A DNA stretch of 64,000 nucleotides from an uncultured Desulfuromonadaceae bacterium (lineage in GTDB: Bacteria; Desulfobacterota; Desulfuromonadia; Geobacterales; Pseudopelobacteraceae). The notes beneath the pieces are model-generated. The model saw nothing but the letters and a program-made list of their open reading frames with translations, was not told where the DNA came from and made no database searches. The stretch covers positions 13,575 to 77,574 of the forward strand of contig CAXYUZ010000011.1 in NCBI GenBank assembly GCA_964292275.1, in the 5' to 3' direction. The translations under genes were made by a program, and so were the position numbers. Shown piece by piece: positions 41,704 to 51,114 of the stretch (its first letter is position 1; every line of letters begins with the position of its first letter).

Positions 41704-43206
41704 TTACGGCATTATCAGTCTGATGTTATCCGCAGGTCTCTCAAATGCCTTGTATTTCTCCAGGGCATGGCAGGCTGCCGTCAAATCGCCGAAATCTATT
41801 TTGCTGATAAATTCCTGGGCGACGCACATGACTCTTATGAACGCACTTGGATCCTTGTGATTGGAGAGCAGTTTCAGGGATGAGATATATTCGTTGCGGT
41901 ATACGCTTGGAATGATGATCCGGCAGATACCTGCAGCCACAAGCTCGGCATTCATCATTGCCCGCGCAGTCCTGCCATTACCGTCGTCAAACGGGTGCAC
42001 CTCGGATACCAGATACATCATGAACAATGCGCGTGCCAAAGGATCAATCAAAGAGTTGTAGAACGCAAAACCTTGCGTAAGTGTGCCCTTTACCAGTTCC
42101 GGTGAAACAAAATAGGTTGTGCCGGCCCGGTTTCCTTTCTCTTTCAGTTCCCCAGGTCTTTTGTCCGGACGGCCCGCCAGGATCATGGCATGACGGTTTC
42201 TCAAAAGCTCCAGAAAAGATGCGGCATCTGCAGGTTTACGGCGCATATCCTCCAGATTGCCGACCACGCGATAAGTGCCAAGGATATCGTGAGCGTCCTC
42301 AGGACGTGACTGGGGGATTACTCCTGAAAAAATGATTCCCAGGGCTTCATCTACTTCAAATTCAGTCCCCTCAATAAAATTGGAAAAATAGGCATCGAAA
42401 AAACTTTCATTGTAAAAAGCATTCCCGGGCTCGTAAAGGCAACCTCTTTCAGGTAATACCTCGCGTGCCAGAGCAGTGCGGAGAGCTTCAAACTGCTCCA
42501 GCCGCACAGGATCATATGGCTCGCCGCTGAAGTACGATTTTGCTACCATGGTTTTCAATTCAGCTTCCCGTGTCCGGAGCAGGCTGCCAATAATACGGTC
42601 CAACTGCTGAAATTCTTTTTCATGACCTAAATCAGCTGCAATGCTGCGGGCATTATCCCGTATCCTGTTCAACTCATCTTCGCCCTTTATGCGCAGGATG
42701 ATGGTCAATTTTTCCTCGACAGCCGTCTGTCCTGCCGATTTGGATATTCCCCCCTTGTCTTTTGTCGGTGCAAGGTTTTCCAGTAACAGCCTTGCAGTGG
42801 AAGACATATAAAGTCCTCCAACGAACGGCATATCACCATTTGCAGGCCCCGAGCCTATAATCCTGATAATACGCAAACCGGGCAACTCGGTGGTCTTTTT
42901 ATAGTTATAGGAGATAAAAACCGAGCCATCCGCAGCAGGTTGATTTTCAAGCGCAGTGCGGAACCCGATCACCCCTCCGGGTGCCAGCATGCCGACAATC
43001 TGCCAGCGGTTCCTGGCGACAATTACCTCCACCGGCTCGCTCATATTGCGTGTGTACAGACGTGGGCCGATTTTTCTGATGATACCCTGTTTAACCATTT
43101 GCGATACTTCGCGTGACGTATCGCTCTCGGAGAGAAAAACTTCCTGTTGAATATTTTTGTTCCGTAAAGTCATCTGGATACCCGCATCTGGAGATTTTGG
43201 TAACAA
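41704..43206 (-). CDS. Fic/DOC family protein (AMPylase-like) with large N-terminal domain
   Basis: Fic motif HPFDDGNGRTARA. 500 aa. Confidence 0.8.
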   Translation of the reverse strand: MLPKSPDAGIQMTLRNKNIQQEVFLSESDTSREVSQMVKQGIIRKIGPRLYTRNMSEPVEVIVARNRWQIVGMLAPGGVIGFRTALENQPAADGSVFISYNYKKTTELPGLRIIRIIGSGPANGDMPFVGGLYMSSTARLLLENLAPTKDKGGISKSAGQTAVEEKLTIILRIKGEDELNRIRDNARSIAADLGHEKEFQQLDRIIGSLLRTREAELKTMVAKSYFSGEPYDPVRLEQFEALRTALAREVLPERGCLYEPGNAFYNESFFDAYFSNFIEGTEFEVDEALGIIFSGVIPQSRPEDAHDILGTYRVVGNLEDMRRKPADAASFLELLRNRHAMILAGRPDKRPGELKEKGNRAGTTYFVSPELVKGTLTQGFAFYNSLIDPLARALFMMYLVSEVHPFDDGNGRTARAMMNAELVAAGICRIIIPSVYRNEYISSLKLLSNHKDPSAFIRVMCVAQEFISKIDFGDLTAACHALEKYKAFERPADNIRLIMP

Positions 43207-43271
43207 TATTCGGCTACATTGTTATTTTTAGCAACCTAAATTACATATTCACCACAAATAGCACCTTAAGA

Positions 43272-43310
43272 AAGCAAAAAGGCTGCCCGTTTGGGGCAGC
43301 CTTTTTGCTG
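43272..43310. terminator. Bidirectional rho-independent terminator
   Basis: Stem aaaaaggctgccc/gggcagccttttt. Confidence 0.75.
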
Positions 43311-43452
43311 AGCATTCAATAGAAAAACCTAGGTCAAATTCCAGATAAACACCCCTCAAAACCATAACCATTTGATTTAAAAGGATATATTTTTTGTTGA
43401 AAATATTTTAAAGGAATTTTTCCTATAATTTAAAAGTTTACCTGTCAATAAA

Positions 43453-43725
43453 TCAAATAACCGAAGGGGAACGACTGGCAATGCGATCGTACCCAGCCAT
43501 GAAGCCATCAGCCGCCAACCTGTAGCCGCGGCTGTCTGTTGCTGTAAGCATGCGGTTTGCTTCGTCGTATGTGAAGCTGTAACCTATGTTGCTGTTTGTT
43601 GCGGTGAGGATGTTGTCGTTGGCGTCGGTTACGGCACTGATGATGCCGTCGGCGGTGTAGCTGTATGCGGTGGCGTTGCCTTTGGGGTCGGTCTGTCTGG
43701 TCAGGCGGCCAGCCCACTCAAACAT
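43453..43725 (-). pseudogene. Rhs repeat-protein fragment (internally deleted, truncated copy of main rhs)
   Basis: 90 aa matching the main Rhs segment GRLTRQTDPKGN..YSYTADGIISAVTDAN...ILTATNSNIGYSFTYD...RMLTATDSRGY, with a 32-aa internal deletion and a divergent tail. Confidence 0.7.
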
Positions 43726-44383
43726 AATAAACTAACGAAAACCATATCATGTTATTAAAACTATGAACCACAATACTAGACCAAATTGACTTTGTTTTTT
43801 CATATACTAACGCATATATGATGCCGGGGATAAATAGGTGTACAAAGTCAATTCGTAATCCATGCAATACCATGTAAATGAATGCCGAAACAATTACACC
43901 AGTTGATACACAAAAGTCGGATTTAATTATATTGTAAATATAGCGTCTGCAATAAACTGCTTCTAAAACAGGACCAACGAAGCAAAGCATAACCAAAAAA
44001 TAGAGTCTAGCTACAGGCCCGTAATTTAAAAACAAAGTATATTCCTTAGGCTTGGCAAGTAACTTGTTCAGCCATATGCCATATGGAAAATTGATTAACA
44101 CACATAATATTAATCCGCATACACAATAATAAATAAACTTGTTAAAATCAGTGATCTTAGTTTCTTGTGGACTATAAAACAACCCCAGGCAATAGGTCGT
44201 AGTTAAGATCAAAAGGAATAATATTGTGTGTGATACCAGGTGCTCATTCAAATATTTAACTGGAATAACAACATGAACGAGTTGAGTTAATATAAAGTAA
44301 AATATTAACGAAAATATCACATGTTTACTATTTTTAATTTTTGCCATGGCCTTATCAATATTCATGCAAGCTACCCAATGCAA
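43718..44383 (-). CDS. CPBP (CAAX protease/Abi) family intramembrane protein; putative immunity protein for orphan Rhs-CT
   Basis: 221 aa, polytopic, AT-rich. CPBP motifs (PVLEAVYCRRYIY ; VLHGL ; HSFNNMIW). Overlaps the end of the orphan rhs-CT ORF. Confidence 0.65.
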   Translation of the reverse strand: MHWVACMNIDKAMAKIKNSKHVIFSLIFYFILTQLVHVVIPVKYLNEHLVSHTILFLLILTTTYCLGLFYSPQETKITDFNKFIYYCVCGLILCVLINFPYGIWLNKLLAKPKEYTLFLNYGPVARLYFLVMLCFVGPVLEAVYCRRYIYNIIKSDFCVSTGVIVSAFIYMVLHGLRIDFVHLFIPGIIYALVYEKTKSIWSSIVVHSFNNMIWFSLVYYV

Positions 44384-46245
44384 GTATTTGGATTGTCTTT
44401 ATATTTCGGCTTGTTATTGTTAGGTGTTTTGTAATTCTTAAAAGAAGGATTATTGGGATCAATTGGCAAGGGATCCTTCGGCGGCTTCGTTAAAAGGAAT
44501 CCTGGTAAATCAAAATACCCAGGTGAACCATTCATAAACTCATTAGCTAAGAATCTGCCAGCTTTATCTAACGCCGGGAGATACGGTGCAACACGCTCAA
44601 TTAAATTCAAGAATGGGATCAAGCCAGTAGGGTCTGTAAAATTCACCGGATTATTTTGGACATATCCATACAAATTAACATCCCCACCCGCAAATGAAAT
44701 GGGGTCACGTGATATGAATCTTCCTTCCACCGGGTCGTAGTATCTGGCGCGGTAGTAGTGCAGGGCGGTTTCTCTGTCCCATTCTCTGCCGGTGAAGGTG
44801 TAGGTGTTTTTGAAGTCGGTTGTCTGCCTTGGTATGCCGAATGTGGTGTAGCTGTAGCTTTGTACTGTGTTGCCGTTGTTGTCGGTTATGGCGGTGGTGC
44901 TGCCCAGTCCGTCGGTATGGTAGTAATAGTACTGTCCGTTTCTTTCCATGGCAAGGTGTTCGTCGGTGTTTATGCCGTGGGTGTAGTTGGTTGTTGTGTT
45001 TGTGGTTGTGCCGTTTTCTGTTGTTGCGGTTGTTTCTACGGCTATGTTGTCGTTGTCATAGATGTAGTTTGTGGTGGTTGTTTTGGTGTTGCCGTTGGTT
45101 GTTATGGTTGTCTGTTTTTCTGTTCTTCTGCCGAATGGGTCGTATTTGAATGTGATGGTGCGTTTGTCGGTTTTGTTGGTGAGTTCGGCTTTTATGAGGC
45201 GGTTTTCCGGATCCCAGGTGTATGTCCAGTTTTTGTCGGTGTTGTTTGTGGTTTTGGTGATGGGGTTGCCGTTGTTGTCGTGGGTGTAGCTGTATTGTTT
45301 GCCTTTTACCAGTTGGTTTGCTGCTTCATGCTGGTATCTGGTGTCATGTGGTCCAGGGCCTTGTGTGCGGTTGCCGTTGGCGTCGTAGGTGTAGGTTTCA
45401 TATCCTTTGGGTGTTGTGGCCTGTGTCAGGCGATAGATGGCGTCATAGGTGTATGTTTCGTTTGTACTGCCGGTTTTTGCTGTGCGGTTGCCGGTTTTGT
45501 CGAGGGTGTATTCTGCCTTGGTGATGATGCTGTTGTCTGCTTTGGTGTGGGTGATGGCTGTCAGGCGGTCGGCATCGTCATAGGAGTAGGTTGTCTTGCT
45601 GTTGTTGGGATAGTTGAGTGTTGTTCTGCGGTTGTTGTTGTCGTAGCTGTAGCTGAATGATCCTGCCAGTGATGTTATGGATGTGAGTCTGTTGGCATCG
45701 TCGTAGCTGTAGGTTGTGGTTTTTGCGGGGGTGCCGGTTTTATTGATGGTGGCGGTGGTGCGGTTGCCGTTTATGTCGTAGGTGTAAGCAATGTTGTAGC
45801 CGCGGCTGTCTGTGGCTGTCAGCATGCGGTTTCTGCTGTCATAGGTGAAGCTGTAACCTATGTTGCTGTTTGTTGCGGTGAGGATGTTGTCGTTGTTGTC
45901 ATAGCTGTAGCTGATGCTGCTGTTGTCCGGCCATGTTTTTGATGTGATCCGGTCTGCAGCATCGCGGGTGTAGGTGATGGTTTTGCTGTTGGCGTCGGTT
46001 ACTGCGCTGATGATGCCGTCGGCGGTGTAGCTGTATGTGGTGGTATTGCCTTTGGGGTCGGTCTGTCTGGTCAGGCGGCCGGCTTTGTCGTATTCATAAC
46101 TGGTGCTGTTGGCAAGCGGATCTGTGAGTGATACCAGTTTGTCATTGCCGCCACCGCCGCAGGATGCACAGCCGGAGCCGCTGTAGGCCAGTGCGGTGGT
46201 GTGGTTGAGGGGGTGGCGGCTTTTTATTTTATGTTTCCTTCTATT
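44371..46245 (-). CDS. Orphan Rhs C-terminal cassette: Rhs repeats + PxxxxDPxGL boundary + alternative CT toxin domain; lacks start codon upstream of internal Met 45825
   Basis: The open frame runs from the TGA at 46246-46248 to the stop at 44371, with no ATG/GTG/TTG before 45825. 44640-46222 is nearly identical to main rhs 47577-49137. The CT sequence after NPVNFTDPTGL differs from the main gene. Confidence 0.7.
   Translation of the reverse strand, partial: NRRKHKIKSRHPLNHTTALAYSGSGCASCGGGGNDKLVSLTDPLANSTSYEYDKAGRLTRQTDPKGNTTTYSYTADGIISAVTDANSKTITYTRDAADRITSKTWPDNSSISYSYDNNDNILTATNSNIGYSFTYDSRNRMLTATDSRGYNIAYTYDINGNRTTATINKTGTPAKTTTYSYDDANRLTSITSLAGSFSYSYDNNNRRTTLNYPNNSKTTYSYDDADRLTAITHTKADNSIITKAEYTLDKTGNRTAKTGSTNETYTYDAIYRLTQATTPKGYETYTYDANGNRTQGPGPHDTRYQHEAANQLVKGKQYSYTHDNNGNPITKTTNNTDKNWTYTWDPENRLIKAELTNKTDKRTITFKYDPFGRRTEKQTTITTNGNTKTTTTNYIYDNDNIAVETTATTENGTTTNTTTNYTHGINTDEHLAMERNGQYYYYHTDGLGSTTAITDNNGNTVQSYSYTTFGIPRQTTDFKNTYTFTGREWDRETALHYYRARYYDPVEGRFISRDPISFAGGDVNLYGYVQNNPVNFTDPTGLIPFLNLIERVAPYLPALDKAGRFLANEFMNGSPGYFDLPGFLLTKPPKDPLPIDPNNPSFKNYKTPNNNKPKYKDNPNTCIG
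44640..46222. repeat. 1.58-kb direct repeat (orphan copy) of rhs core
   Basis: Near-identical to 47577-49137 with only a few substitutions. Ends at the PxxxxDPxGL-encoding boundary. Confidence 0.85.
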
Positions 46246-46667
46246 TCAGATAGTTCTAAGAGAGCGTCATCTAATTCTTCTCGTGTTTCAATATCAAATG
46301 GCTTCATTGAGTTGATAAGATTTATTAACTGCTTGTATTTTAAAATAGCTGTGCTTAATTCTCCCATATTTTTGTAATTTTGAGCTAAATCATGTAATGC
46401 CCTTATATTATCAGGCTGAATACTCAAAACTTTACAATAGCAATCTCTTGCAGCCATCATATCATTGACGACATTTTTATCATTTGAGCCATCAAGTTCT
46501 CTTGCAAACGCACCTAATTCTAAAACATTACCATTAAGTATCAATGCATCTATATCGTTAGCATTATTACCAAGCAACTTCTTGAGTATACAGATTGCTT
46601 TGTTGTAATTACCTACTAATGATTCTTTTTTTGCGGACTCCAACAATTGAATGCGATTTGTTTTCAA
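46224..46667 (-). CDS. TPR-repeat protein (AT-rich), possible immunity/adaptor gene
   Basis: 147 aa with TPR-like helical repeats. AT-rich codon usage unlike the flanking rhs. Confidence 0.5.
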   Translation of the reverse strand: MKTNRIQLLESAKKESLVGNYNKAICILKKLLGNNANDIDALILNGNVLELGAFARELDGSNDKNVVNDMMAARDCYCKVLSIQPDNIRALHDLAQNYKNMGELSTAILKYKQLINLINSMKPFDIETREELDDALLELSEIEGNIK

Positions 46668-46675
46668 AACAATCC

Positions 46676-46762
46676 TCGTATTTGAATTTGACGATACATT
46701 TGTCAGCTTTATTAGTGAGTTCGGCTATTATGAGCCGTTTTTCGGATCCCATGAAACATGGG
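46676..46762 (-). pseudogene. Decayed rhs fragment
   Basis: cgtatttgaatttgacgatacatttgtcagctttattagtgagttcggctattatgagccgtttttcggatccca is about 80% identical to rhs 45131-45210 and 48060-48140, with AT-shifted substitutions. Confidence 0.6.
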
Positions 46763-46774
46763 AGCAATGAGAAT

Positions 46775-47149
46775 TTACTCAATATATCTTAAAGTTAATT
46801 CACCGCCATCCACTAAATCCTTCATTTGTTCATTGTTTTCCAGTATGTACTGAGAATAAGTAAGTTCTGTCCCACTTACAGGGCGATCATGATCTAAATC
46901 AAATGGTTCAGGATTGCTTATGTTAATTAATTTCCTAAGACCTTCATAAACCATTTTTGCTGCTTTGTTATCGAGAGTCATATCATTATTATAAAAAGCC
47001 TCATTCCTACCAATGACTTCTGCTTTCTCAAGCGCTTCCGTTGATGTTTCGGCTTCAATCAAAACAAAATTTTCATAAACTGGTATTTGTGATTGTGGTT
47101 GTTCAAGGGTTTTAATACTCATAATTATACTTGCAACATACCAAGTCAT
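46775..47149 (-). CDS. Putative Rhs immunity protein (small cytoplasmic protein)
   Basis: 124 aa. ATGA overlap with the main rhs stop. AT-rich. Confidence 0.55.
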   Translation of the reverse strand: MTWYVASIIMSIKTLEQPQSQIPVYENFVLIEAETSTEALEKAEVIGRNEAFYNNDMTLDNKAAKMVYEGLRKLINISNPEPFDLDHDRPVSGTELTYSQYILENNEQMKDLVDGGELTLRYIE

Positions 47150-50100
47150 TTTTTCTCCTTACACTTATCGTTTTGAGTAGAATTTTTTCGGCATCCCAGT
47201 ACTTTTTGAGCTGTTTTAATTTTCATTCTTTCGGCAGTTGATGATGCGTTATTATACTGTTTTATCAGCCAATTACATGGGTCTGGTTGTTGACTAGCTT
47301 CTCTTGAATATTCATTGGCTTTGTTTTGAATACCCCCTTTAGCCATTTGAATTGGTATAGGAATTTCCGGATTAAGCATTGGTTTACCTGTCCAATATCT
47401 CCATGCTTGTACTACCAAGTTATCAGAATTATAATTGTTTTTTAGCCATTCAACGGGGTCTGGACCAGGTCCAGGTTTAATAAAGTTAGGTTTACCGGTA
47501 ATTGGAATTAAAGGTACCGATATCCAAGGAATAGCTATCAATCCATCTGGATCAACCCAATTAACCGGATTCCCTTGGACATACCCATACAAATTAACAT
47601 CCCCACCCGCAAATGAAATGGGGTCACGACTTATGAACCTCCCTTCCACCGGGTCGTAGTATCTGGCTCGGTAGTAGTGCAGGGCGGTTTCTCTGTCCCA
47701 TTCCCTGCCGGTGAAGGTGTAGCTGTTTTTGAAGTCGGTTGTCTGCCTTGGTATGCCGAATGTGGTGTAGCTGTAGCTTTGTACTGTGTTGCCGTTGTTG
47801 TCGGTTATGGCGGTGGTGCTGCCCAGTCCGTCGGTATGGTAGTAATAGTACTGTCCGTTTCTTTCCATGGCAAGGTGTTCGTCGGTGTTTATGCCGTGGG
47901 TGTAGTTGGTTGTTGTGTTTGTGGTTGTGCCGTTTTCTGTTGTTGCGGTTGTTTCTACGGCTATGTTGTCGTTGTCATAGATGTAGTTTGTGGTGGTTGT
48001 TTTGGTGTTGCCGTTGGTTGTTATGGTTGTCTGTTTTTCTGTTCTTCTGCCGAATGGGTCGTATTTGAATGTGATGGTGCGTTTGTCGGTTTTGTTGGTG
48101 AGTTCGGCTTTTATGAGGCGGTTTTCCGGATCCCAGGTGTATGTCCAGTTTTTGTCGGTGTTGTTTGTGGTTTTGGTGATGGGGTTGCCGTTGTTGTCGT
48201 GGGTGTAGCTGTATTGTTTGCCTTTTACCAGTTGGTTTGCTGCTTCGTGCTGGTATCTGGTGTCATGTGGTCCGGGGCCTTGTGTGCGGTTGCCGTTGGC
48301 GTCGTAGTTGTAGGTTTCATATCCTTTGGGTGTTGCGGCCTGTGTCAGGCGATAGATGGCGTCATAGCTGTATGTTTCGTTTGTGCTGCCGGTTTTTGCG
48401 GTGCGATTGCCGGTTTTGTCGAGGGTGTATTCTGCTTTGGTGATGATGCTGTTGTCTGTTTTGGTGTGGGTGATTGCTGTCAGTCGGTCGGCATCGTCAT
48501 GGCTGTAGGTTGCCTTGCTGTTGTTGGGATAGTTCAGCCCTGTTCTGCGGTTGTTGTTGTCATAGCTGTAGCTGAATGATCCTGCCGGTGATGTTATGGA
48601 TGTGAGTCTGTTGGCATCGTCGTAGCTGTAGGTTGTGGTTTTTGCGGGGGTGCCGGTTTTATTGATGGTGGCGGTGGTGCGGTTGCCGTTTATGTCGTAG
48701 GTGTAAGCAATGTTGTAGCCGCGGCTGTCTGTGGCTGTCAGCATGCGGTTTCTGCTGTCATAGGTGAAGCTGTAACCTATGTTGCTGTTTGTTGCGGTGA
48801 GGATGTTGTCGTTGTTGTCATAGCTGTAGCTGATGCTGCTGTTGTCCGGCCATGTTTTTGATGTGATCCGGTCTGCAGCATCGCGGGTGTAGGTGATGGT
48901 TTTGCTGTTGGCGTCGGTTACTGCGCTGATGATGCCGTCGGCGGTGTAGCTGTATGTGGTGGTATTGCCTTTGGGGTCGGTCTGTCTGGTCAGGCGGCCG
49001 GCTTTGTCGTATTCATAACTGGTGCTGTTGGCAAGCGGATCTGTGAGTGATACCAGTTTGTCATTGCCGCCACCGCCGCAGGATGCACAGCCGGAACCGC
49101 TGTAGGCCAGTGCGGTGGTGTGGTTGAGGGGGTTTTTAACCGTCAGGGGCTGGCGGTTGTAGTTGTAGGTGTAGTTTGTGCTTCTGCCGTTGGCATCGGT
49201 TATTGATGAGCGGTTGCCGATTTTGTCATAGGCCAGTTGGGATATGTTGCCAAGGCTGTCGGTGATTTTAACCGGGCGGTTCATGGTGTCATATTCAACA
49301 GTGGCTGCCTTGCCGGCCGGGTTGGTGGCGGTGAGCAGGTTGCCGTTTATGTCATAGCTGTATGTTGTGGTGTTGTTGTTCTGATCGGTTATGCTGCTGA
49401 TGTTGTTGTATGTGTCATAGGCGATTGTTACCACTTTGCCAGCCGGATCGGTAATGGTAAGCGGATTGCCTTTGGAGTCATAGCTGTAGCTGACTACGGC
49501 ACTGGCAGGATCGGTCGTTTGCAGCAGGTTGCCTTTGGTATCATAGCTGTTGCTGGTGACGTTGCCCTTGGGGTCGGTGGCGGTGAGTACCTGGCCGCGG
49601 CTGTTGTAGGTGAATGAGGTGACACGACCAAGCGGATCGGTGATTGATGTGGTGTTGTTGTCGGCGTCGTATGTGTAGCTGGTGGTTTTACTGCCCGGTT
49701 CGGTGCGGGTAAGCAGGTTGCCTTTTGAGTCATAGGTGTAACTTGTTGTATTGCCCAGCGGGTCGGTTATTGCGGTTGGTGCATTAAGGGTTGGATCGTA
49801 TTTTCTGATCCAGATACCTCCGTCTTTCTCGGTGATGGTGCTGGTGGTGCTGTCGGTATAGGTGATGTACTTGGTACGCCCTTCAGGGTCAGTGGCGGCG
49901 CTGTTTTTGCCGGCGGCATCATATACGTTGGTACTTTGAAACCCTTCCGGGTTGGTCTTCTGGCTCATTCTGCTGTTTGAATCATAGACATAGTTCCAGC
50001 TGTTGCCTGCGGGATCGGTAACCTTGTTCAACAGGTTGCTGGTATAGGTAAAGCTGGTGGTTCTGCCGGCAGGGTCAGCAATGGCGGTGATATAGCCGTT

Positions 50101-51114
50101 GGTGACAGTAAAGGTAAGCTTGCGGCCAACCGGATCGGTGATGGAACTCAGATAGCTGCCGTTATAGGTAATGACGGTTTTGTTACCGTTGCTGTCGGTA
50201 ACAGCGGTCAGCAGGCCGGAGTTGTTAAATGACTGCACCAGGCCGTTTTTAAAGGTGCGGGTGTATGTGGAATCACTGTTCTTTACAATGACTGAATCAT
50301 CGGAACTGTTGGCAGGTGGCAGATAACTGCTGCCGGAAAGGGTAAAAACAAGGTTGTCACCATCACCGAGACGAAGTGTAATGGCGCTGGATGATTCCTT
50401 GAGGCTGATGTTGTAACCATGTGTCCAGCCACGCCCAAGCGGCAGATCGGTTGTATCGAGGCTGTTGTAGGATATGTCAAAGGATAAACTCTCAGGTTTG
50501 GCGATGACGGTCTGGGAGTGGTAGTAGTTGCCGCTTTTCAGGTTGGCGGCTGAGTTGGTTGTTGCGGTGTTGGCCGGGCAGGTTTTGCATTGACCGAGGT
50601 CGCGGGGGGGAATAACCGGTGGCGGCGGTGGTGGATAGTTGCAGGTAATCAGGTCGTTACTGGCTGCGCCGCCAGCCCCGAAGAACACCTTTTTGATGAC
50701 ATCGGTATAAACCTGCTTATTGGCAAGGGTGCCTATATTAACTCCTTCAATGGTGCCGGTGTAAGATTTATGCACCAATATGAAGTGTGTGCCCTTGCTG
50801 TTACGGAATACCTTGTTGACATTGTATGAGTTGTTCAAGCCGTATTGCTGCAGTGAGGCTGGGGTTGTTGTGCTGTCGCCATATGAGGCTTCATAGTGTA
50901 CTTTACCGTTCACACAGGTGATTAACGTATCAATGTAATGATGGGTTGTGCTGTCATTGTCACCGGCAGCCGGACAGGTGTCTGCGGTATATTCAATGCC
51001 GATGTTATTAATGCCGTTTTGTACACTGCAAACGCCTTCCGCATTTACAACGGTCGGGGCAATTAATAACGCGGCCACGCTCAAGGCTGAACAGATTTTT
51101 TTAAACGAGAACAT
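47146..51114 (-). CDS. rhs: Rhs/YD-repeat polymorphic toxin, full length, with Sec signal peptide and variable C-terminal toxin domain
   Basis: 1322 aa. Signal peptide MFSFKKICSALSVAALLIAPTVVNA, dozens of YD/Rhs repeats (xYxYDxxGN), the Rhs core, a NPVNWVDPDGL boundary, then about 170 aa of unique CT. Confidence 0.9.
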   Translation of the reverse strand: MFSFKKICSALSVAALLIAPTVVNAEGVCSVQNGINNIGIEYTADTCPAAGDNDSTTHHYIDTLITCVNGKVHYEASYGDSTTTPASLQQYGLNNSYNVNKVFRNSKGTHFILVHKSYTGTIEGVNIGTLANKQVYTDVIKKVFFGAGGAASNDLITCNYPPPPPPVIPPRDLGQCKTCPANTATTNSAANLKSGNYYHSQTVIAKPESLSFDISYNSLDTTDLPLGRGWTHGYNISLKESSSAITLRLGDGDNLVFTLSGSSYLPPANSSDDSVIVKNSDSTYTRTFKNGLVQSFNNSGLLTAVTDSNGNKTVITYNGSYLSSITDPVGRKLTFTVTNGYITAIADPAGRTTSFTYTSNLLNKVTDPAGNSWNYVYDSNSRMSQKTNPEGFQSTNVYDAAGKNSAATDPEGRTKYITYTDSTTSTITEKDGGIWIRKYDPTLNAPTAITDPLGNTTSYTYDSKGNLLTRTEPGSKTTSYTYDADNNTTSITDPLGRVTSFTYNSRGQVLTATDPKGNVTSNSYDTKGNLLQTTDPASAVVSYSYDSKGNPLTITDPAGKVVTIAYDTYNNISSITDQNNNTTTYSYDINGNLLTATNPAGKAATVEYDTMNRPVKITDSLGNISQLAYDKIGNRSSITDANGRSTNYTYNYNRQPLTVKNPLNHTTALAYSGSGCASCGGGGNDKLVSLTDPLANSTSYEYDKAGRLTRQTDPKGNTTTYSYTADGIISAVTDANSKTITYTRDAADRITSKTWPDNSSISYSYDNNDNILTATNSNIGYSFTYDSRNRMLTATDSRGYNIAYTYDINGNRTTATINKTGTPAKTTTYSYDDANRLTSITSPAGSFSYSYDNNNRRTGLNYPNNSKATYSHDDADRLTAITHTKTDNSIITKAEYTLDKTGNRTAKTGSTNETYSYDAIYRLTQAATPKGYETYNYDANGNRTQGPGPHDTRYQHEAANQLVKGKQYSYTHDNNGNPITKTTNNTDKNWTYTWDPENRLIKAELTNKTDKRTITFKYDPFGRRTEKQTTITTNGNTKTTTTNYIYDNDNIAVETTATTENGTTTNTTTNYTHGINTDEHLAMERNGQYYYYHTDGLGSTTAITDNNGNTVQSYSYTTFGIPRQTTDFKNSYTFTGREWDRETALHYYRARYYDPVEGRFISRDPISFAGGDVNLYGYVQGNPVNWVDPDGLIAIPWISVPLIPITGKPNFIKPGPGPDPVEWLKNNYNSDNLVVQAWRYWTGKPMLNPEIPIPIQMAKGGIQNKANEYSREASQQPDPCNWLIKQYNNASSTAERMKIKTAQKVLGCRKNSTQNDKCKEKK
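47577..49137. repeat. 1.58-kb direct repeat (main rhs copy)
   Basis: See 44640-46222. Confidence 0.85.

What the first reader, a model, noticed from the sequence alone, without database searches (positions are those of the whole stretch)
43718..44383. CPBP (Abi/CAAX-protease) membrane protein as the cognate immunity partner of an Rhs C-terminal toxin
CPBP/Abi proteins are classic bacteriocin immunity factors in Firmicutes. Here one is encoded in the immunity position directly 3' of an orphan Rhs-CT and overlaps its stop. That suggests the orphan toxin acts at the membrane or envelope, and it is an unusual Rhs immunity type.
Basis: inference. Interest (0 to 1): 0.55.

Follow-up and report, generated by a model that had tools for sequence, protein, structure and literature searches.

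The report
CPBP protease partner of small Rhs toxin
A membrane-embedded CPBP protease gene sits right after a spare ("orphan") Rhs toxin tip, and the same pairing recurs in nine unrelated DNA contexts, so the two are true partners and the protease is probably a new kind of immunity factor for Rhs and type VI secretion toxins.

Summary
Window 43718..44365 (minus strand; the TTG start at 44383 is unlikely) encodes a 215-aa multi-pass membrane protein. It matches Pfam PF02517 (Rce1-like/CPBP) at E=9e-17. It lies 5 nt after the stop of an orphan Rhs fragment. That fragment shares 1575 nt at 97.7% identity with the full-length rhs upstream and diverges exactly at the DPTGL motif.

The tip behind that motif ("CT-A", 82 aa) matches no known toxin family. 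It is basic, proline- and asparagine-rich, and has no transmembrane segment. CT-A relatives were found in nine independent metagenomic contexts. These include Rhs tips, stand-alone orphans, a mobile element, and a small protein directly after an hcp gene. In all nine, a CPBP of the same subfamily is the next gene.

Two other short Rhs tips (CT-B, CT-C) are each followed by their own divergent CPBP. Both partners are under purifying selection, and the catalytic Glu, Arg, His, His and Asn are invariant.

The best reading is a cognate toxin–immunity pair in which an active intramembrane protease protects the cell. Immunity is inferred, not shown. The main rival is a toxin-maturation protease. I found no published description of this pairing. 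It is a new variant of a known kind.

The parts
47146..51114 (-). Full-length Rhs protein (1322 aa). It has an N-terminal Sec-type signal peptide (by inspection), DUF6531, 18 RHS repeats, and its own C-terminal tip after VDPDGL.
   Evidence: PF05593 E=1e-98; PF20148 E=1.5e-10.
46775..47149 (-). DUF4288 protein (124 aa) in the immunity position of the main Rhs tip. It overlaps the rhs stop codon.
   Evidence: PF14119 E=2.7e-10.
46224..46667 (-). TPR-like protein (147 aa). It is preceded by a ~25-codon Rhs core remnant (ORF 46609..46782) and is probably the surviving partner of a decayed orphan module.
   Evidence: TPR hits, all below curated cut-offs.
44640..46214 (-). Orphan rhs core. It is 1575 nt long and 97.7% identical to main rhs 47559..49133. 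The frame is open but has no start codon before the ATG at 45825.
44371..44639 (-). DPTGL cleavage motif plus the CT-A tip (82 aa after DPTGL, ending ...NTCIG) and its TAG stop. CT-A belongs to a previously uncatalogued family with no Pfam, NCBIfam or PDB match.
   Evidence: dN/dS is 0.08-0.16.
43718..44365 (-). CPBP-A intramembrane glutamic protease homologue (215 aa from the conserved ATG; the alternative TTG start is at 44383).
   Evidence: (PF02517 E=9.3e-17). dN/dS is 0.14-0.22.
43453..43725 (-). Rhs core fragment (90-aa ORF). It is 93% identical to two pieces of the main rhs (aa 705-736 and 768-800) with an internal deletion, and is the remnant of a further orphan.
43273..43309 (-). 16-bp G+C-rich hairpin flanked by A and U runs. 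It is a likely terminator closing the rhs locus before the Fic gene.
   Evidence: dG -29.8 kcal/mol, z = -4.8.

Best explanation
CT-A and CPBP-A form a cognate toxin–immunity cassette of the polymorphic-toxin type.

CT-A is a small effector domain of about 9 kDa. Different scaffolds can carry it: the tip of an Rhs cocoon, released at DPxGL, or a small protein encoded next to hcp in a type VI secretion cluster. CPBP-A is an inner-membrane protease with an intact active site. It protects cells that carry it, most likely by cleaving the incoming peptide at the membrane and less likely by binding it. This would match what has been proposed for the Abi/CPBP immunity proteins SkkI, PlnI and PlnL of class IIb bacteriocins.

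In this window the cassette is a silent orphan. It has no start codon or secretion region, but 1.5 kb of near-identical core would let it recombine into the expressed rhs gene. The CPBP gene, tightly coupled 5 nt after the tip, would protect against neighbours armed with CT-A.

Shown: CPBP family membership, orphan status, obligate linkage, purifying selection, and conservation of the catalytic residues.
Inferred: toxicity of CT-A, the protective role of the CPBP, proteolysis as the mechanism, and the membrane or periplasm as the site of action.
For: 1. CPBP membership: PF02517 at E=9.3e-17.

2. Orphan architecture: the homology break falls exactly at DPTGL.

3. Linkage: CT-A relatives occur in nine independent contexts.
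- The window, with sister contigs L001 and L002.
- L003 and L004.
- L005-L008 and L011, which are one locus.
- L009.
- L013.
- L014 and L015.
- L016 and L017, which are one locus.
All nine have a CPBP-A gene starting from 13 nt before to about 70 nt after the tip's stop codon. One copy is cut by a transposase and two by contig ends. Conversely, every CPBP-A found is preceded by a CT-A.

4. Change of delivery scaffold: in L016/L017 the CT-A-like domain is the C-terminal half of a 136-aa protein lying between an hcp gene (PF05638 E=1e-32) and a CPBP-A gene (PF02517 E=8e-20). A second Hcp-extension protein follows. This is a classic hcp-effector-immunity layout.

5. Partner switching: L011 carries Rhs-CT-B followed by CPBP-B, and L015 carries Rhs-CT-C followed by CPBP-C. 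CPBP-B and CPBP-C are 17% and 26% identical to the window's CPBP-A, respectively. Each pair is followed by an orphan CT-A/CPBP-A.

6. Selection: dN/dS is 0.08-0.16 for CT-A and 0.14-0.22 for CPBP-A, with dS of 0.2-1.5.

7. Active site: E135, R140, H168, H201 and N205 are invariant in all nine CPBP-A/B/C sequences. The second Glu is present in eight of nine.

8. Composition: the cassette is A+T-rich (CT-A 40% and CPBP 31% G+C, against 52% for the window), like the other tip-and-partner modules of the locus.

9. Precedent: Abi/CPBP proteins act as immunity factors for sakacin 23K and plantaricins EF and JK, with proteolysis suggested as the mechanism (PMC8538875, citing Kjos et al. 2010).
Against: - No experiment supports toxicity or protection.
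- CT-A matches no toxin family. It is hydrophilic (GRAVY -0.63), 17% proline, and has no transmembrane segment. AlphaFold gives only one low-confidence helix followed by disorder (pLDDT 56). Nothing in CT-A itself says toxin or membrane.
- CT-A is more conserved than its partner. That is not the pattern expected from an arms race at a binding interface.
- CPBPs in other toxin operons are thought to be maturation proteases (SagE and SkfC-type; PMC3578759 for the context). Fewer than 1% of Abi proteins lie in bacteriocin loci (PMC3578759).
- The window's own copy has E136A plus two further substitutions close to motif 1, so it may be functionally altered.
- The family is rare. It is absent from 185,579 GTDB species representatives.
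Confidence: 0.65

Rival explanations
1. The CPBP is a maturation or processing protease for the tip rather than an immunity factor. It would trim or activate CT-A, for example at its conserved near-C-terminal cysteine. This would be analogous to Rce1 acting on CaaX tails, or to the CPBP-type proteases assigned to toxin or peptide maturation (SagE, SkfC, MroQ).
For: - The catalytic residues are strictly conserved, so an enzymatic role is under selection.
- A single Cys lies 3-4 residues from the C-terminus in most CT-A members (CIG, CTG, CRG, CGN, CNGK). The same is true of the unrelated CT-B (HCGR) and CT-C (RCPKK).
- Strict co-inheritance of substrate and enzyme would produce the same linkage.
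- The literature records CPBPs in small-toxin operons whose role is unresolved or is processing (PMC3578759).
Against: - The hcp-linked member P0014 lacks both the tail and the Cys, yet keeps a CPBP-A 58% identical to the window's copy.
- P0010 and P0012 have 15-16 residues after the Cys.
- The window's main Rhs tip also ends with a near-terminal Cys (…DKCKEKK) but is partnered with DUF4288. The Cys may therefore be a feature of this Rhs clade.
- The motif is C-x-x, not C-a-a-X.
- From general knowledge of Rhs structure, the tip is sealed inside the cocoon in the producer, out of reach of a membrane protease.
- Gene order (tip, then a tightly coupled downstream gene, including after hcp) is the immunity position.
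Confidence: 0.15
2. CT-A is not a toxin. It would be a non-lethal cargo, such as a signalling, adhesion or kin-recognition peptide. The CPBP would be its receptor or a modulator, as described for LsrS, or for Abx1 and SpdC-type CPBPs that act through protein-protein interaction.
For: - CT-A has no enzymatic or pore-forming signature and is mostly predicted to be disordered.
- It is unusually well conserved.
- Some bacterial Abi-domain proteins work without protease activity (Abx1; PMC3578759).
Against: - Tips of Rhs proteins and small genes placed after hcp are, in characterised cases, toxins with immunity genes downstream (general knowledge; Zhang et al. 2012, PMC3482391).
- Orphan arrays and partner switching among A, B and C types are hallmarks of toxin-immunity diversification.
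- The invariant catalytic residues argue against a purely binding role.
Confidence: 0.12
3. The adjacency is coincidental. The CPBP would be an unrelated housekeeping membrane protease that happens to lie next to an rhs remnant.
For: Most bacterial CPBP genes are not in toxin loci (PMC3578759).
Against: - Linkage holds in nine of nine contexts with different flanks (see the calls cited above).
- The CPBP's G+C content is 31% against 52% for the genome.
- The subfamily was never found away from a CT-A.
Confidence: 0.02

Closest known systems
Abi/CPBP bacteriocin immunity proteins of Firmicutes (SkkI, PlnI, PlnL; Kjos et al. 2010, as summarised in PMC8538875)
   Same: Both are multi-pass PF02517 proteins with the Glu/His/His-Asn motifs. 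Both are encoded next to a small secreted antibacterial peptide and are proposed to protect by degrading it.
   Different: Here the toxin is not a free double-glycine-leader bacteriocin. It is the tip of an Rhs cocoon, or a protein encoded next to hcp. The loci carrying it have diderm hallmarks: a TonB-dependent receptor gene in the window and hcp in L016/L017. The peptide is 82 aa, hydrophilic and proline-rich. Sequence similarity to other CPBPs is confined to the catalytic core.
Rhs orphan toxin–immunity modules (rhs-CT/rhsI; polymorphic toxin systems, Zhang et al. 2012, PMC3482391)
   Same: Shared features are core homology with the main rhs, a break at the DPxGL motif, a variable A+T-rich tip, a tightly coupled downstream gene, and arrays of displaced modules.
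   Different: According to that survey, known Rhs immunity proteins are almost all small cytoplasmic, non-enzymatic binders. Here the partner is a catalytically intact intramembrane protease, and the tip matches no catalogued toxin domain.
Membrane-targeting Rhs and T6SS/T7SS toxins with membrane-embedded immunity proteins (for example Tse5/Tsi5, Ssp6/Sip6, EsxX, TelE; PMC12744356 and PMC10434224 for the last two, the others from my own knowledge)
   Same: In both, a small toxin domain is delivered by a polymorphic scaffold and the immunity protein sits in the cytoplasmic membrane.
   Different: Those toxins are hydrophobic or carry glycine zippers, and their immunity proteins are small non-enzymatic membrane proteins. 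CT-A has no transmembrane or glycine-zipper segment, and the partner is a protease homologue.
Rce1 and the sorting-type CPBPs (myxosortase, MrtJ, MrtS)
   Same: They share the catalytic fold and motifs. Their substrates are defined by a cysteine near the C-terminus.
   Different: CT-A ends in C-x-x, not CaaX, and has no C-terminal transmembrane sorting signal. NCBIfam scores are far below the cut-offs (34.7 against 75 bits for MrtJ; 23.2 against 100 for Mrt_core).

Membership tests
CPBP / Rce1-like intramembrane glutamic proteases (Pfam PF02517) | Match to the family HMM above the curated threshold | tested here: met
   E=9.3e-17, 61.5 bits against a cut-off of 22.4, profile positions 4-93 of 93.
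CPBP / Rce1-like intramembrane glutamic proteases (Pfam PF02517) | Motif 1, E-E-x-x-x-R | tested here: inconclusive
   The window has E135-A136-V-Y-C-R140. The first Glu and the Arg are present and the second Glu is replaced. Sister contigs L001 and L002 and all seven other CPBP-A/B/C sequences have EE. From my own knowledge of Rce1 mutagenesis and structure, the first Glu is the catalytic one. I did not verify this here.
CPBP / Rce1-like intramembrane glutamic proteases (Pfam PF02517) | Motif 2 (F-x-x-x-H) and motif 3 (H-x-x-x-N/D) | tested here: met
   Y164-M-V-L-H168 and H201-S-F-N-N205 are present. H168, H201 and N205 are invariant in nine of nine sequences.
CPBP / Rce1-like intramembrane glutamic proteases (Pfam PF02517) | Multi-pass membrane protein | tested here: met
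   Kyte-Doolittle 19-residue windows give at least six hydrophobic peaks and a GRAVY of +0.84. The AlphaFold model is all-helical but has a pLDDT of 42, so it was not used for fold comparison.
CPBP / Rce1-like intramembrane glutamic proteases (Pfam PF02517) | Proteolytic activity | not testable with these tools
   Needs biochemistry.
Abi-type bacteriocin immunity proteins | Encoded next to, and inherited with, a specific secreted toxin | tested here: met
   Nine of nine contexts.
Abi-type bacteriocin immunity proteins | Confers protection against the cognate toxin, dependent on the conserved motifs | not testable with these tools
   Needs co-expression and competition assays.
Rhs orphan toxin–immunity module | Rhs core homologous to a full-length rhs in the same locus, without its N-terminal region | tested here: met
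   1575 nt at 97.7% identity, with no start codon before 45825.
Rhs orphan toxin–immunity module | PxxxxDPxGL motif followed by a tip unrelated to that of the main gene | tested here: met
   The orphan reads NNPVNFTDPTGL followed by CT-A. The main gene reads GNPVNWVDPDGL followed by a different tip. Homology ends at 44640.
Rhs orphan toxin–immunity module | Tip belongs to a recognised toxin family or is demonstrably toxic | tested here: not met
   No Pfam, NCBIfam, PADLOC or PDB match. Toxicity itself is not testable here.
Sorting-type CPBPs (MrtJ, MrtS, myxosortase) and the Rce1 CaaX system | Score above the NCBIfam cut-off; substrate with a C-terminal transmembrane sorting signal or a CaaX box | tested here: not met
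   All NCBIfam hits are below their cut-offs. CT-A ends C-I-G, with no C-terminal transmembrane segment.

The most novel reading that the evidence does not exclude
A set of catalytically intact CPBP intramembrane proteases (types A, B and C) act as enzymatic immunity proteins. They would destroy small peptide toxins delivered by Rhs or type VI secretion as these reach the inner membrane. That would make them the first proteolytic immunity mechanism in polymorphic toxin systems. The single near-C-terminal cysteine of the tips may serve as a CaaX-like recognition or cleavage determinant. The three clustered amino-acid changes next to motif 1 in this strain would then mark ongoing adaptation of the protease.
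Probability: 0.3. Interest if true: 0.75.

Novelty: new variant of a known kind. Interest (0 to 1): 0.6.

Why it matters
Immunity proteins of Rhs, CDI and T6SS toxins are almost always small, non-enzymatic binders. An intramembrane protease in that role would add a new immunity mechanism. It would link Gram-positive bacteriocin immunity with polymorphic toxins in bacteria whose loci carry diderm hallmarks. It would also provide natural peptide substrates for bacterial CPBP proteases, whose substrates are mostly unknown.

The work also defines a new small effector domain (CT-A). The domain is used on at least two delivery scaffolds and can be tested directly by co-expression.

Tried and rejected
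- Genome collection scans. The CT-A profile found nothing in genome contigs. The CPBP profile found only a distant Clostridium perfringens CPBP. The organism therefore could not be named, and the family is absent from the species representatives.
- Viral contigs. The CPBP scan found nothing. The CT-A alignment was too diverse to scan with.
- The CT-B homologue search returned nothing.
- PDB sequence search with the CT-A profile gave no hit up to E=10.
- PADLOC gave no defence-system match for the CPBP or CT-A.
- AlphaFold models. CT-A reached pLDDT 56 and the CPBP pLDDT 42 with the shallow alignments allowed. Both are too poor for fold searches, so none were run.
- Promoter and terminator consensus scan of 43200..47300 gave counts no higher than in shuffled sequence. 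Independent transcription of the CPBP could not be assessed.
- Relationship between the tips. hhalign of CT-A against CT-B and CT-C gave probabilities below 1%. CT-B against CT-C gave only a weak BLASTP hit (E=0.006).
- The idea that the near-terminal Cys is specific to CPBP-paired tips was weakened. The hcp-linked member has no Cys, and the DUF4288-paired main tip also has a near-terminal Cys.
- The idea that the window and L001 had swapped their main and orphan core variants was tested and rejected.
- Kjos et al. 2010 (PMC2849437) is not held in the library. It is cited only through PMC8538875 and PMC3578759.

Full report
**1. What is at the coordinates**

On the minus strand the locus reads as follows.
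- A full-length Rhs protein at 51114..47146: 1322 aa, signal peptide by inspection, DUF6531, 18 RHS repeats.
- A DUF4288 gene at 47149..46775, overlapping the rhs stop codon.
- A ~25-codon Rhs remnant followed by a TPR-like gene at 46667..46224.
- An orphan Rhs fragment.
- The ORF in question.
- A 90-aa Rhs core fragment at 43725..43453.
- A strong hairpin at 43309..43273 (dG -29.8 kcal/mol, z = -4.8).
- A Fic-domain gene.

The ORF 43718..44383 matches PF02517 (Rce1-like/CPBP) at E=9.3e-17, 61.5 bits against a cut-off of 22.4. NCBIfam gives only sub-threshold similarity to several CPBP subfamilies, and PADLOC gives nothing. The protein is hydrophobic (GRAVY +0.84) with at least six hydrophobic segments.

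**2. Orphan status and gene junction**

Window 46214..44640 is 97.7% identical over 1575 nt to 49133..47559 of the main rhs. The homology stops just before the DPTGL motif. The frame is open over the whole homology, but the first start codon is the ATG at 45825, and there is no N-terminal or secretion region. This is a textbook displaced rhs-CT cassette.

In the homologues the conserved start is an ATG 5-6 nt after the tip's stop codon. In the window the sequence reads TAG-cttgc-ATG, which places the start at 44365. The coupling is tight either way.

The cassette is A+T-rich: CT-A 40% and CPBP 31% G+C, against 52% for the window. The other tip-and-partner modules of the locus are A+T-rich too.

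**3. The tip (CT-A)**

The 82 residues after DPTGL are IPFLNLIERVAPYLPALDKAGRFLANEFMNGSPGYFDLPGFLLTKPPKDPLPIDPNNPSFKNYKTPNNNKPKYKDNPNTCIG. They have no Pfam, NCBIfam, PADLOC or PDB match.

The peptide is 9.2 kDa with a pI of 9.1 and a GRAVY of -0.63. It is 17% Pro and 13% Asn, has a single Cys, and has no transmembrane segment. AlphaFold with a three-sequence alignment gives one helix (residues 2-34 of the 87-residue input, which includes DPTGL) followed by disorder, at pLDDT 56.

**4. Comparative evidence for a cognate pair**

The CPBP has only three close relatives among 5.8 billion clustered proteins. A full HMMER scan of 1.84 billion representatives with the CT-A profile found eight true relatives. 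I read the DNA around each of them. The contexts fall into nine independent groups.

| # | Loci | Context |
|---|---|---|
| 1 | Window, L001, L002 | Orphan behind a full-length rhs |
| 2 | L003 | Rhs core, then CT-A, then a CPBP 67% identical to the window's |
| 3 | L004 | A different sequence before DPTGL, then CT-A and CPBP |
| 4 | L005-L008, L011 | Stand-alone 83-aa CT-A plus CPBP-A, lying behind an Rhs gene that ends in a different tip (CT-B) and its own CPBP-B |
| 5 | L009 | Short Rhs remnant with CT-A; CPBP-A cut after about 85 codons by a transposase |
| 6 | L013 | A divergent, longer CT-A with CPBP-A overlapping its stop codon by 13 nt, next to two integrases and a primase |
| 7 | L014 | Rhs fragment with a CT-A variant, then the start of a CPBP-A |
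| 8 | L015 | Rhs fragment with a third tip (CT-C) and CPBP-C, then an IS30-HTH::CT-A chimera and the start of a CPBP-A |
| 9 | L016, L017 | A 136-aa stand-alone protein whose C-terminal half is CT-A-like, lying directly after hcp and before CPBP-A, followed by a second Hcp-extension protein |

In L016 the hcp gene matches PF05638 at E=1e-32. Its CPBP-A is 58% identical to the window's and matches PF02517 at E=8e-20.

In all nine contexts the gene after the tip is a CPBP-A. No CPBP-A was found without a CT-A in front of it. Two further CT-A carriers gave no information. The contig of P0010 (a full-length 1340-aa Rhs) ends 17 nt after the gene. No DNA was available for the contig of P0008.

**5. 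Selection and active site**

Pairwise dN/dS is 0.08-0.16 for CT-A and 0.14-0.22 for CPBP-A, at dS of 0.2-1.5. Both are therefore functional coding sequences even in orphan positions.

In an alignment of nine CPBP-A/B/C sequences, E135, R140, H168, H201 and N205 are invariant. The second Glu of EExxxR is present in eight of nine, and the window is the exception. Selection is thus on an enzyme, not merely on a membrane binder.

CT-A shows no detectable similarity to CT-B or CT-C (hhalign probability below 1%). CT-B and CT-C may be distantly related to each other.

**6. Interpretation**

Five features together are the signature of a polymorphic toxin–immunity cassette.
- Position immediately downstream of the tip.
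- Strict co-inheritance.
- Use of the same tip on two delivery scaffolds (the Rhs cocoon and an hcp-linked small protein).
- Arrays of displaced modules.
- Switching of the CPBP type with the tip type.

CPBP/Abi proteins are established immunity factors for some class IIb bacteriocins (SkkI, PlnI, PlnL), and proteolysis of the bacteriocin has been suggested as the mechanism (PMC8538875, citing Kjos et al. 2010). I therefore rate [quoted passage not shown] as most likely (0.65).

Family membership, linkage, selection and motif conservation are shown. Toxicity, protection, proteolysis and the site of action are inferred.

**7. Rivals**

*(a) Maturation protease (0.15).* CPBPs in small-toxin operons such as sag and skf have unresolved or processing roles (PMC3578759). 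Most CT-A members, and also CT-B and CT-C, carry their single Cys 3-4 residues from the C-terminus.
Against this:
- The hcp-linked member lacks the tail and the Cys yet keeps CPBP-A.
- Two members have 15-16 residues after the Cys.
- The window's DUF4288-paired main tip also ends …DKCKEKK.
- The motif is not CaaX.
- The tip is enclosed in the Rhs shell in the producer (general knowledge).

*(b) CT-A is a non-toxic cargo and the CPBP is its receptor or modulator (0.12).*

*(c) Coincidental adjacency (0.02).* The linkage data refute this.

**8. Comparison with what is known, and novelty**

The 2012 survey of polymorphic toxin systems states that nearly all immunity proteins are cytoplasmic, globular and non-enzymatic. 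It mentions CPBP only as a relative of the PrsW processing peptidase (PMC3482391). A 2026 Morganella T6SS survey lists CPBP genes among "miscellaneous" cluster genes, without assigning a role (PMC13129497). Searches combining CPBP, CAAX or PF02517 with Rhs, T6SS, LXG or immunity found no description of this pairing.

The system works like Abi-type bacteriocin immunity and like Rhs orphan modules. What is new is the combination and the tip family. I therefore call it a new variant of a known kind.

The family is rare. It is absent from the GTDB species representatives and from viral contigs.

**9. Unexplained**

Over 20.7 kb the window and contig L001 align without gaps and differ at 57 positions. 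Every annotated single-copy gene checked is identical except the CPBP. It carries three substitutions within 48 nt, all non-synonymous: E136A, M146I and G152C. L002 agrees with L001 at these sites.

The other 54 differences are 27 positions changed identically in both the main and the orphan rhs core copies. The 36 main-versus-orphan differences are the same in both assemblies. The possible causes are adaptive change in the protease, a local mutational event, gene conversion, or assembly error. These cannot be separated without the reads.

Noticed in passing
window 43912, 43928, 43959 (CPBP codons 152, 146 and 136 from the ATG start): Among the annotated single-copy genes checked across the 20.7 kb shared with contigs L001 and L002, the only differences from L001 are three non-synonymous changes within 48 nt of the CPBP gene: G152C, M146I and E136A. 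The last removes the second Glu of the EExxxR motif. No synonymous change accompanies them.
   Followed up: partly
window 47559..49133 and 44640..46214: Both the main and the orphan rhs core copies differ from both copies in L001 at the same 27 positions. The 36 main-versus-orphan differences are identical in the two assemblies. This points to concerted evolution or gene conversion between the copies, or to a repeat-polishing artefact.
   Followed up: partly
window 46224..46782 (minus strand): A ~25-codon Rhs core remnant (…RLIIAELTNKADKCIVKFKYEDCFE…) precedes a 147-aa TPR-like gene. It looks like a decayed orphan module whose tip has been lost while the putative immunity gene survives.
   Followed up: no
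window 43453..43725 (minus strand): The 90-aa Rhs fragment directly after the CPBP matches main Rhs aa 705-736 and 768-800 at 93% identity, with an internal deletion. Its Rhs similarity ends (…MLTATDSRGY) at the motif that begins the called orphan ORF. It is probably the stump of a further orphan.
   Followed up: partly
CT-A family members; L011 62..1027; L015 349..966; window 47146..47560: A single cysteine lies 3-5 residues from the C-terminus in three tip classes, of which CT-A shows no detectable similarity to the other two: CT-A (CIG, CTG, CRG, CGN, CNGK), CT-B (HCGR) and CT-C (RCPKK). The window's main Rhs tip also has one (DKCKEKK). This may be a shared processing, lipidation or disulfide determinant of this Rhs clade.
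   Followed up: partly
L016 4542..7826 (JGI 3300076802, 1.59-Mb contig); L017: A type VI secretion auxiliary cluster with this gene order: hcp, a 136-aa CT-A-like protein, CPBP-A, a 257-aa Hcp protein with a C-terminal extension, and a 190-aa protein. It shows that the CT-A domain is also used outside Rhs proteins.
   Followed up: partly
L013 1..4400 (JGI 3300009784): An orphan CT-A/CPBP-A pair lies next to two tyrosine integrases and a Toprim/primase protein. This suggests the cassette can be carried on an integrative mobile element.
   Followed up: no
window 41704..43206 (minus strand): A 500-aa protein has a C-terminal Fic domain (PF02661 E=9e-13) and an N-terminal AbiEi-like region. Its best PADLOC hit is SoFic (E=3e-20). 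It is a possible defence or toxin-antitoxin gene next to the rhs locus.
   Followed up: no
window 44758..45660 and 47677..48579 (plus strand): Long 300-aa antisense ORFs run through both rhs core copies. They are artefacts of the skewed composition. The gene caller used for L001 called this antisense ORF instead of the orphan rhs.
   Followed up: no
window 47146..47562 and 46775..47149 (minus strand): The main Rhs tip (about 130 aa) has only a weak Ntox34 hit (E=0.059). It is paired with a DUF4288 protein, so DUF4288 is a candidate immunity family for this tip.
   Followed up: no
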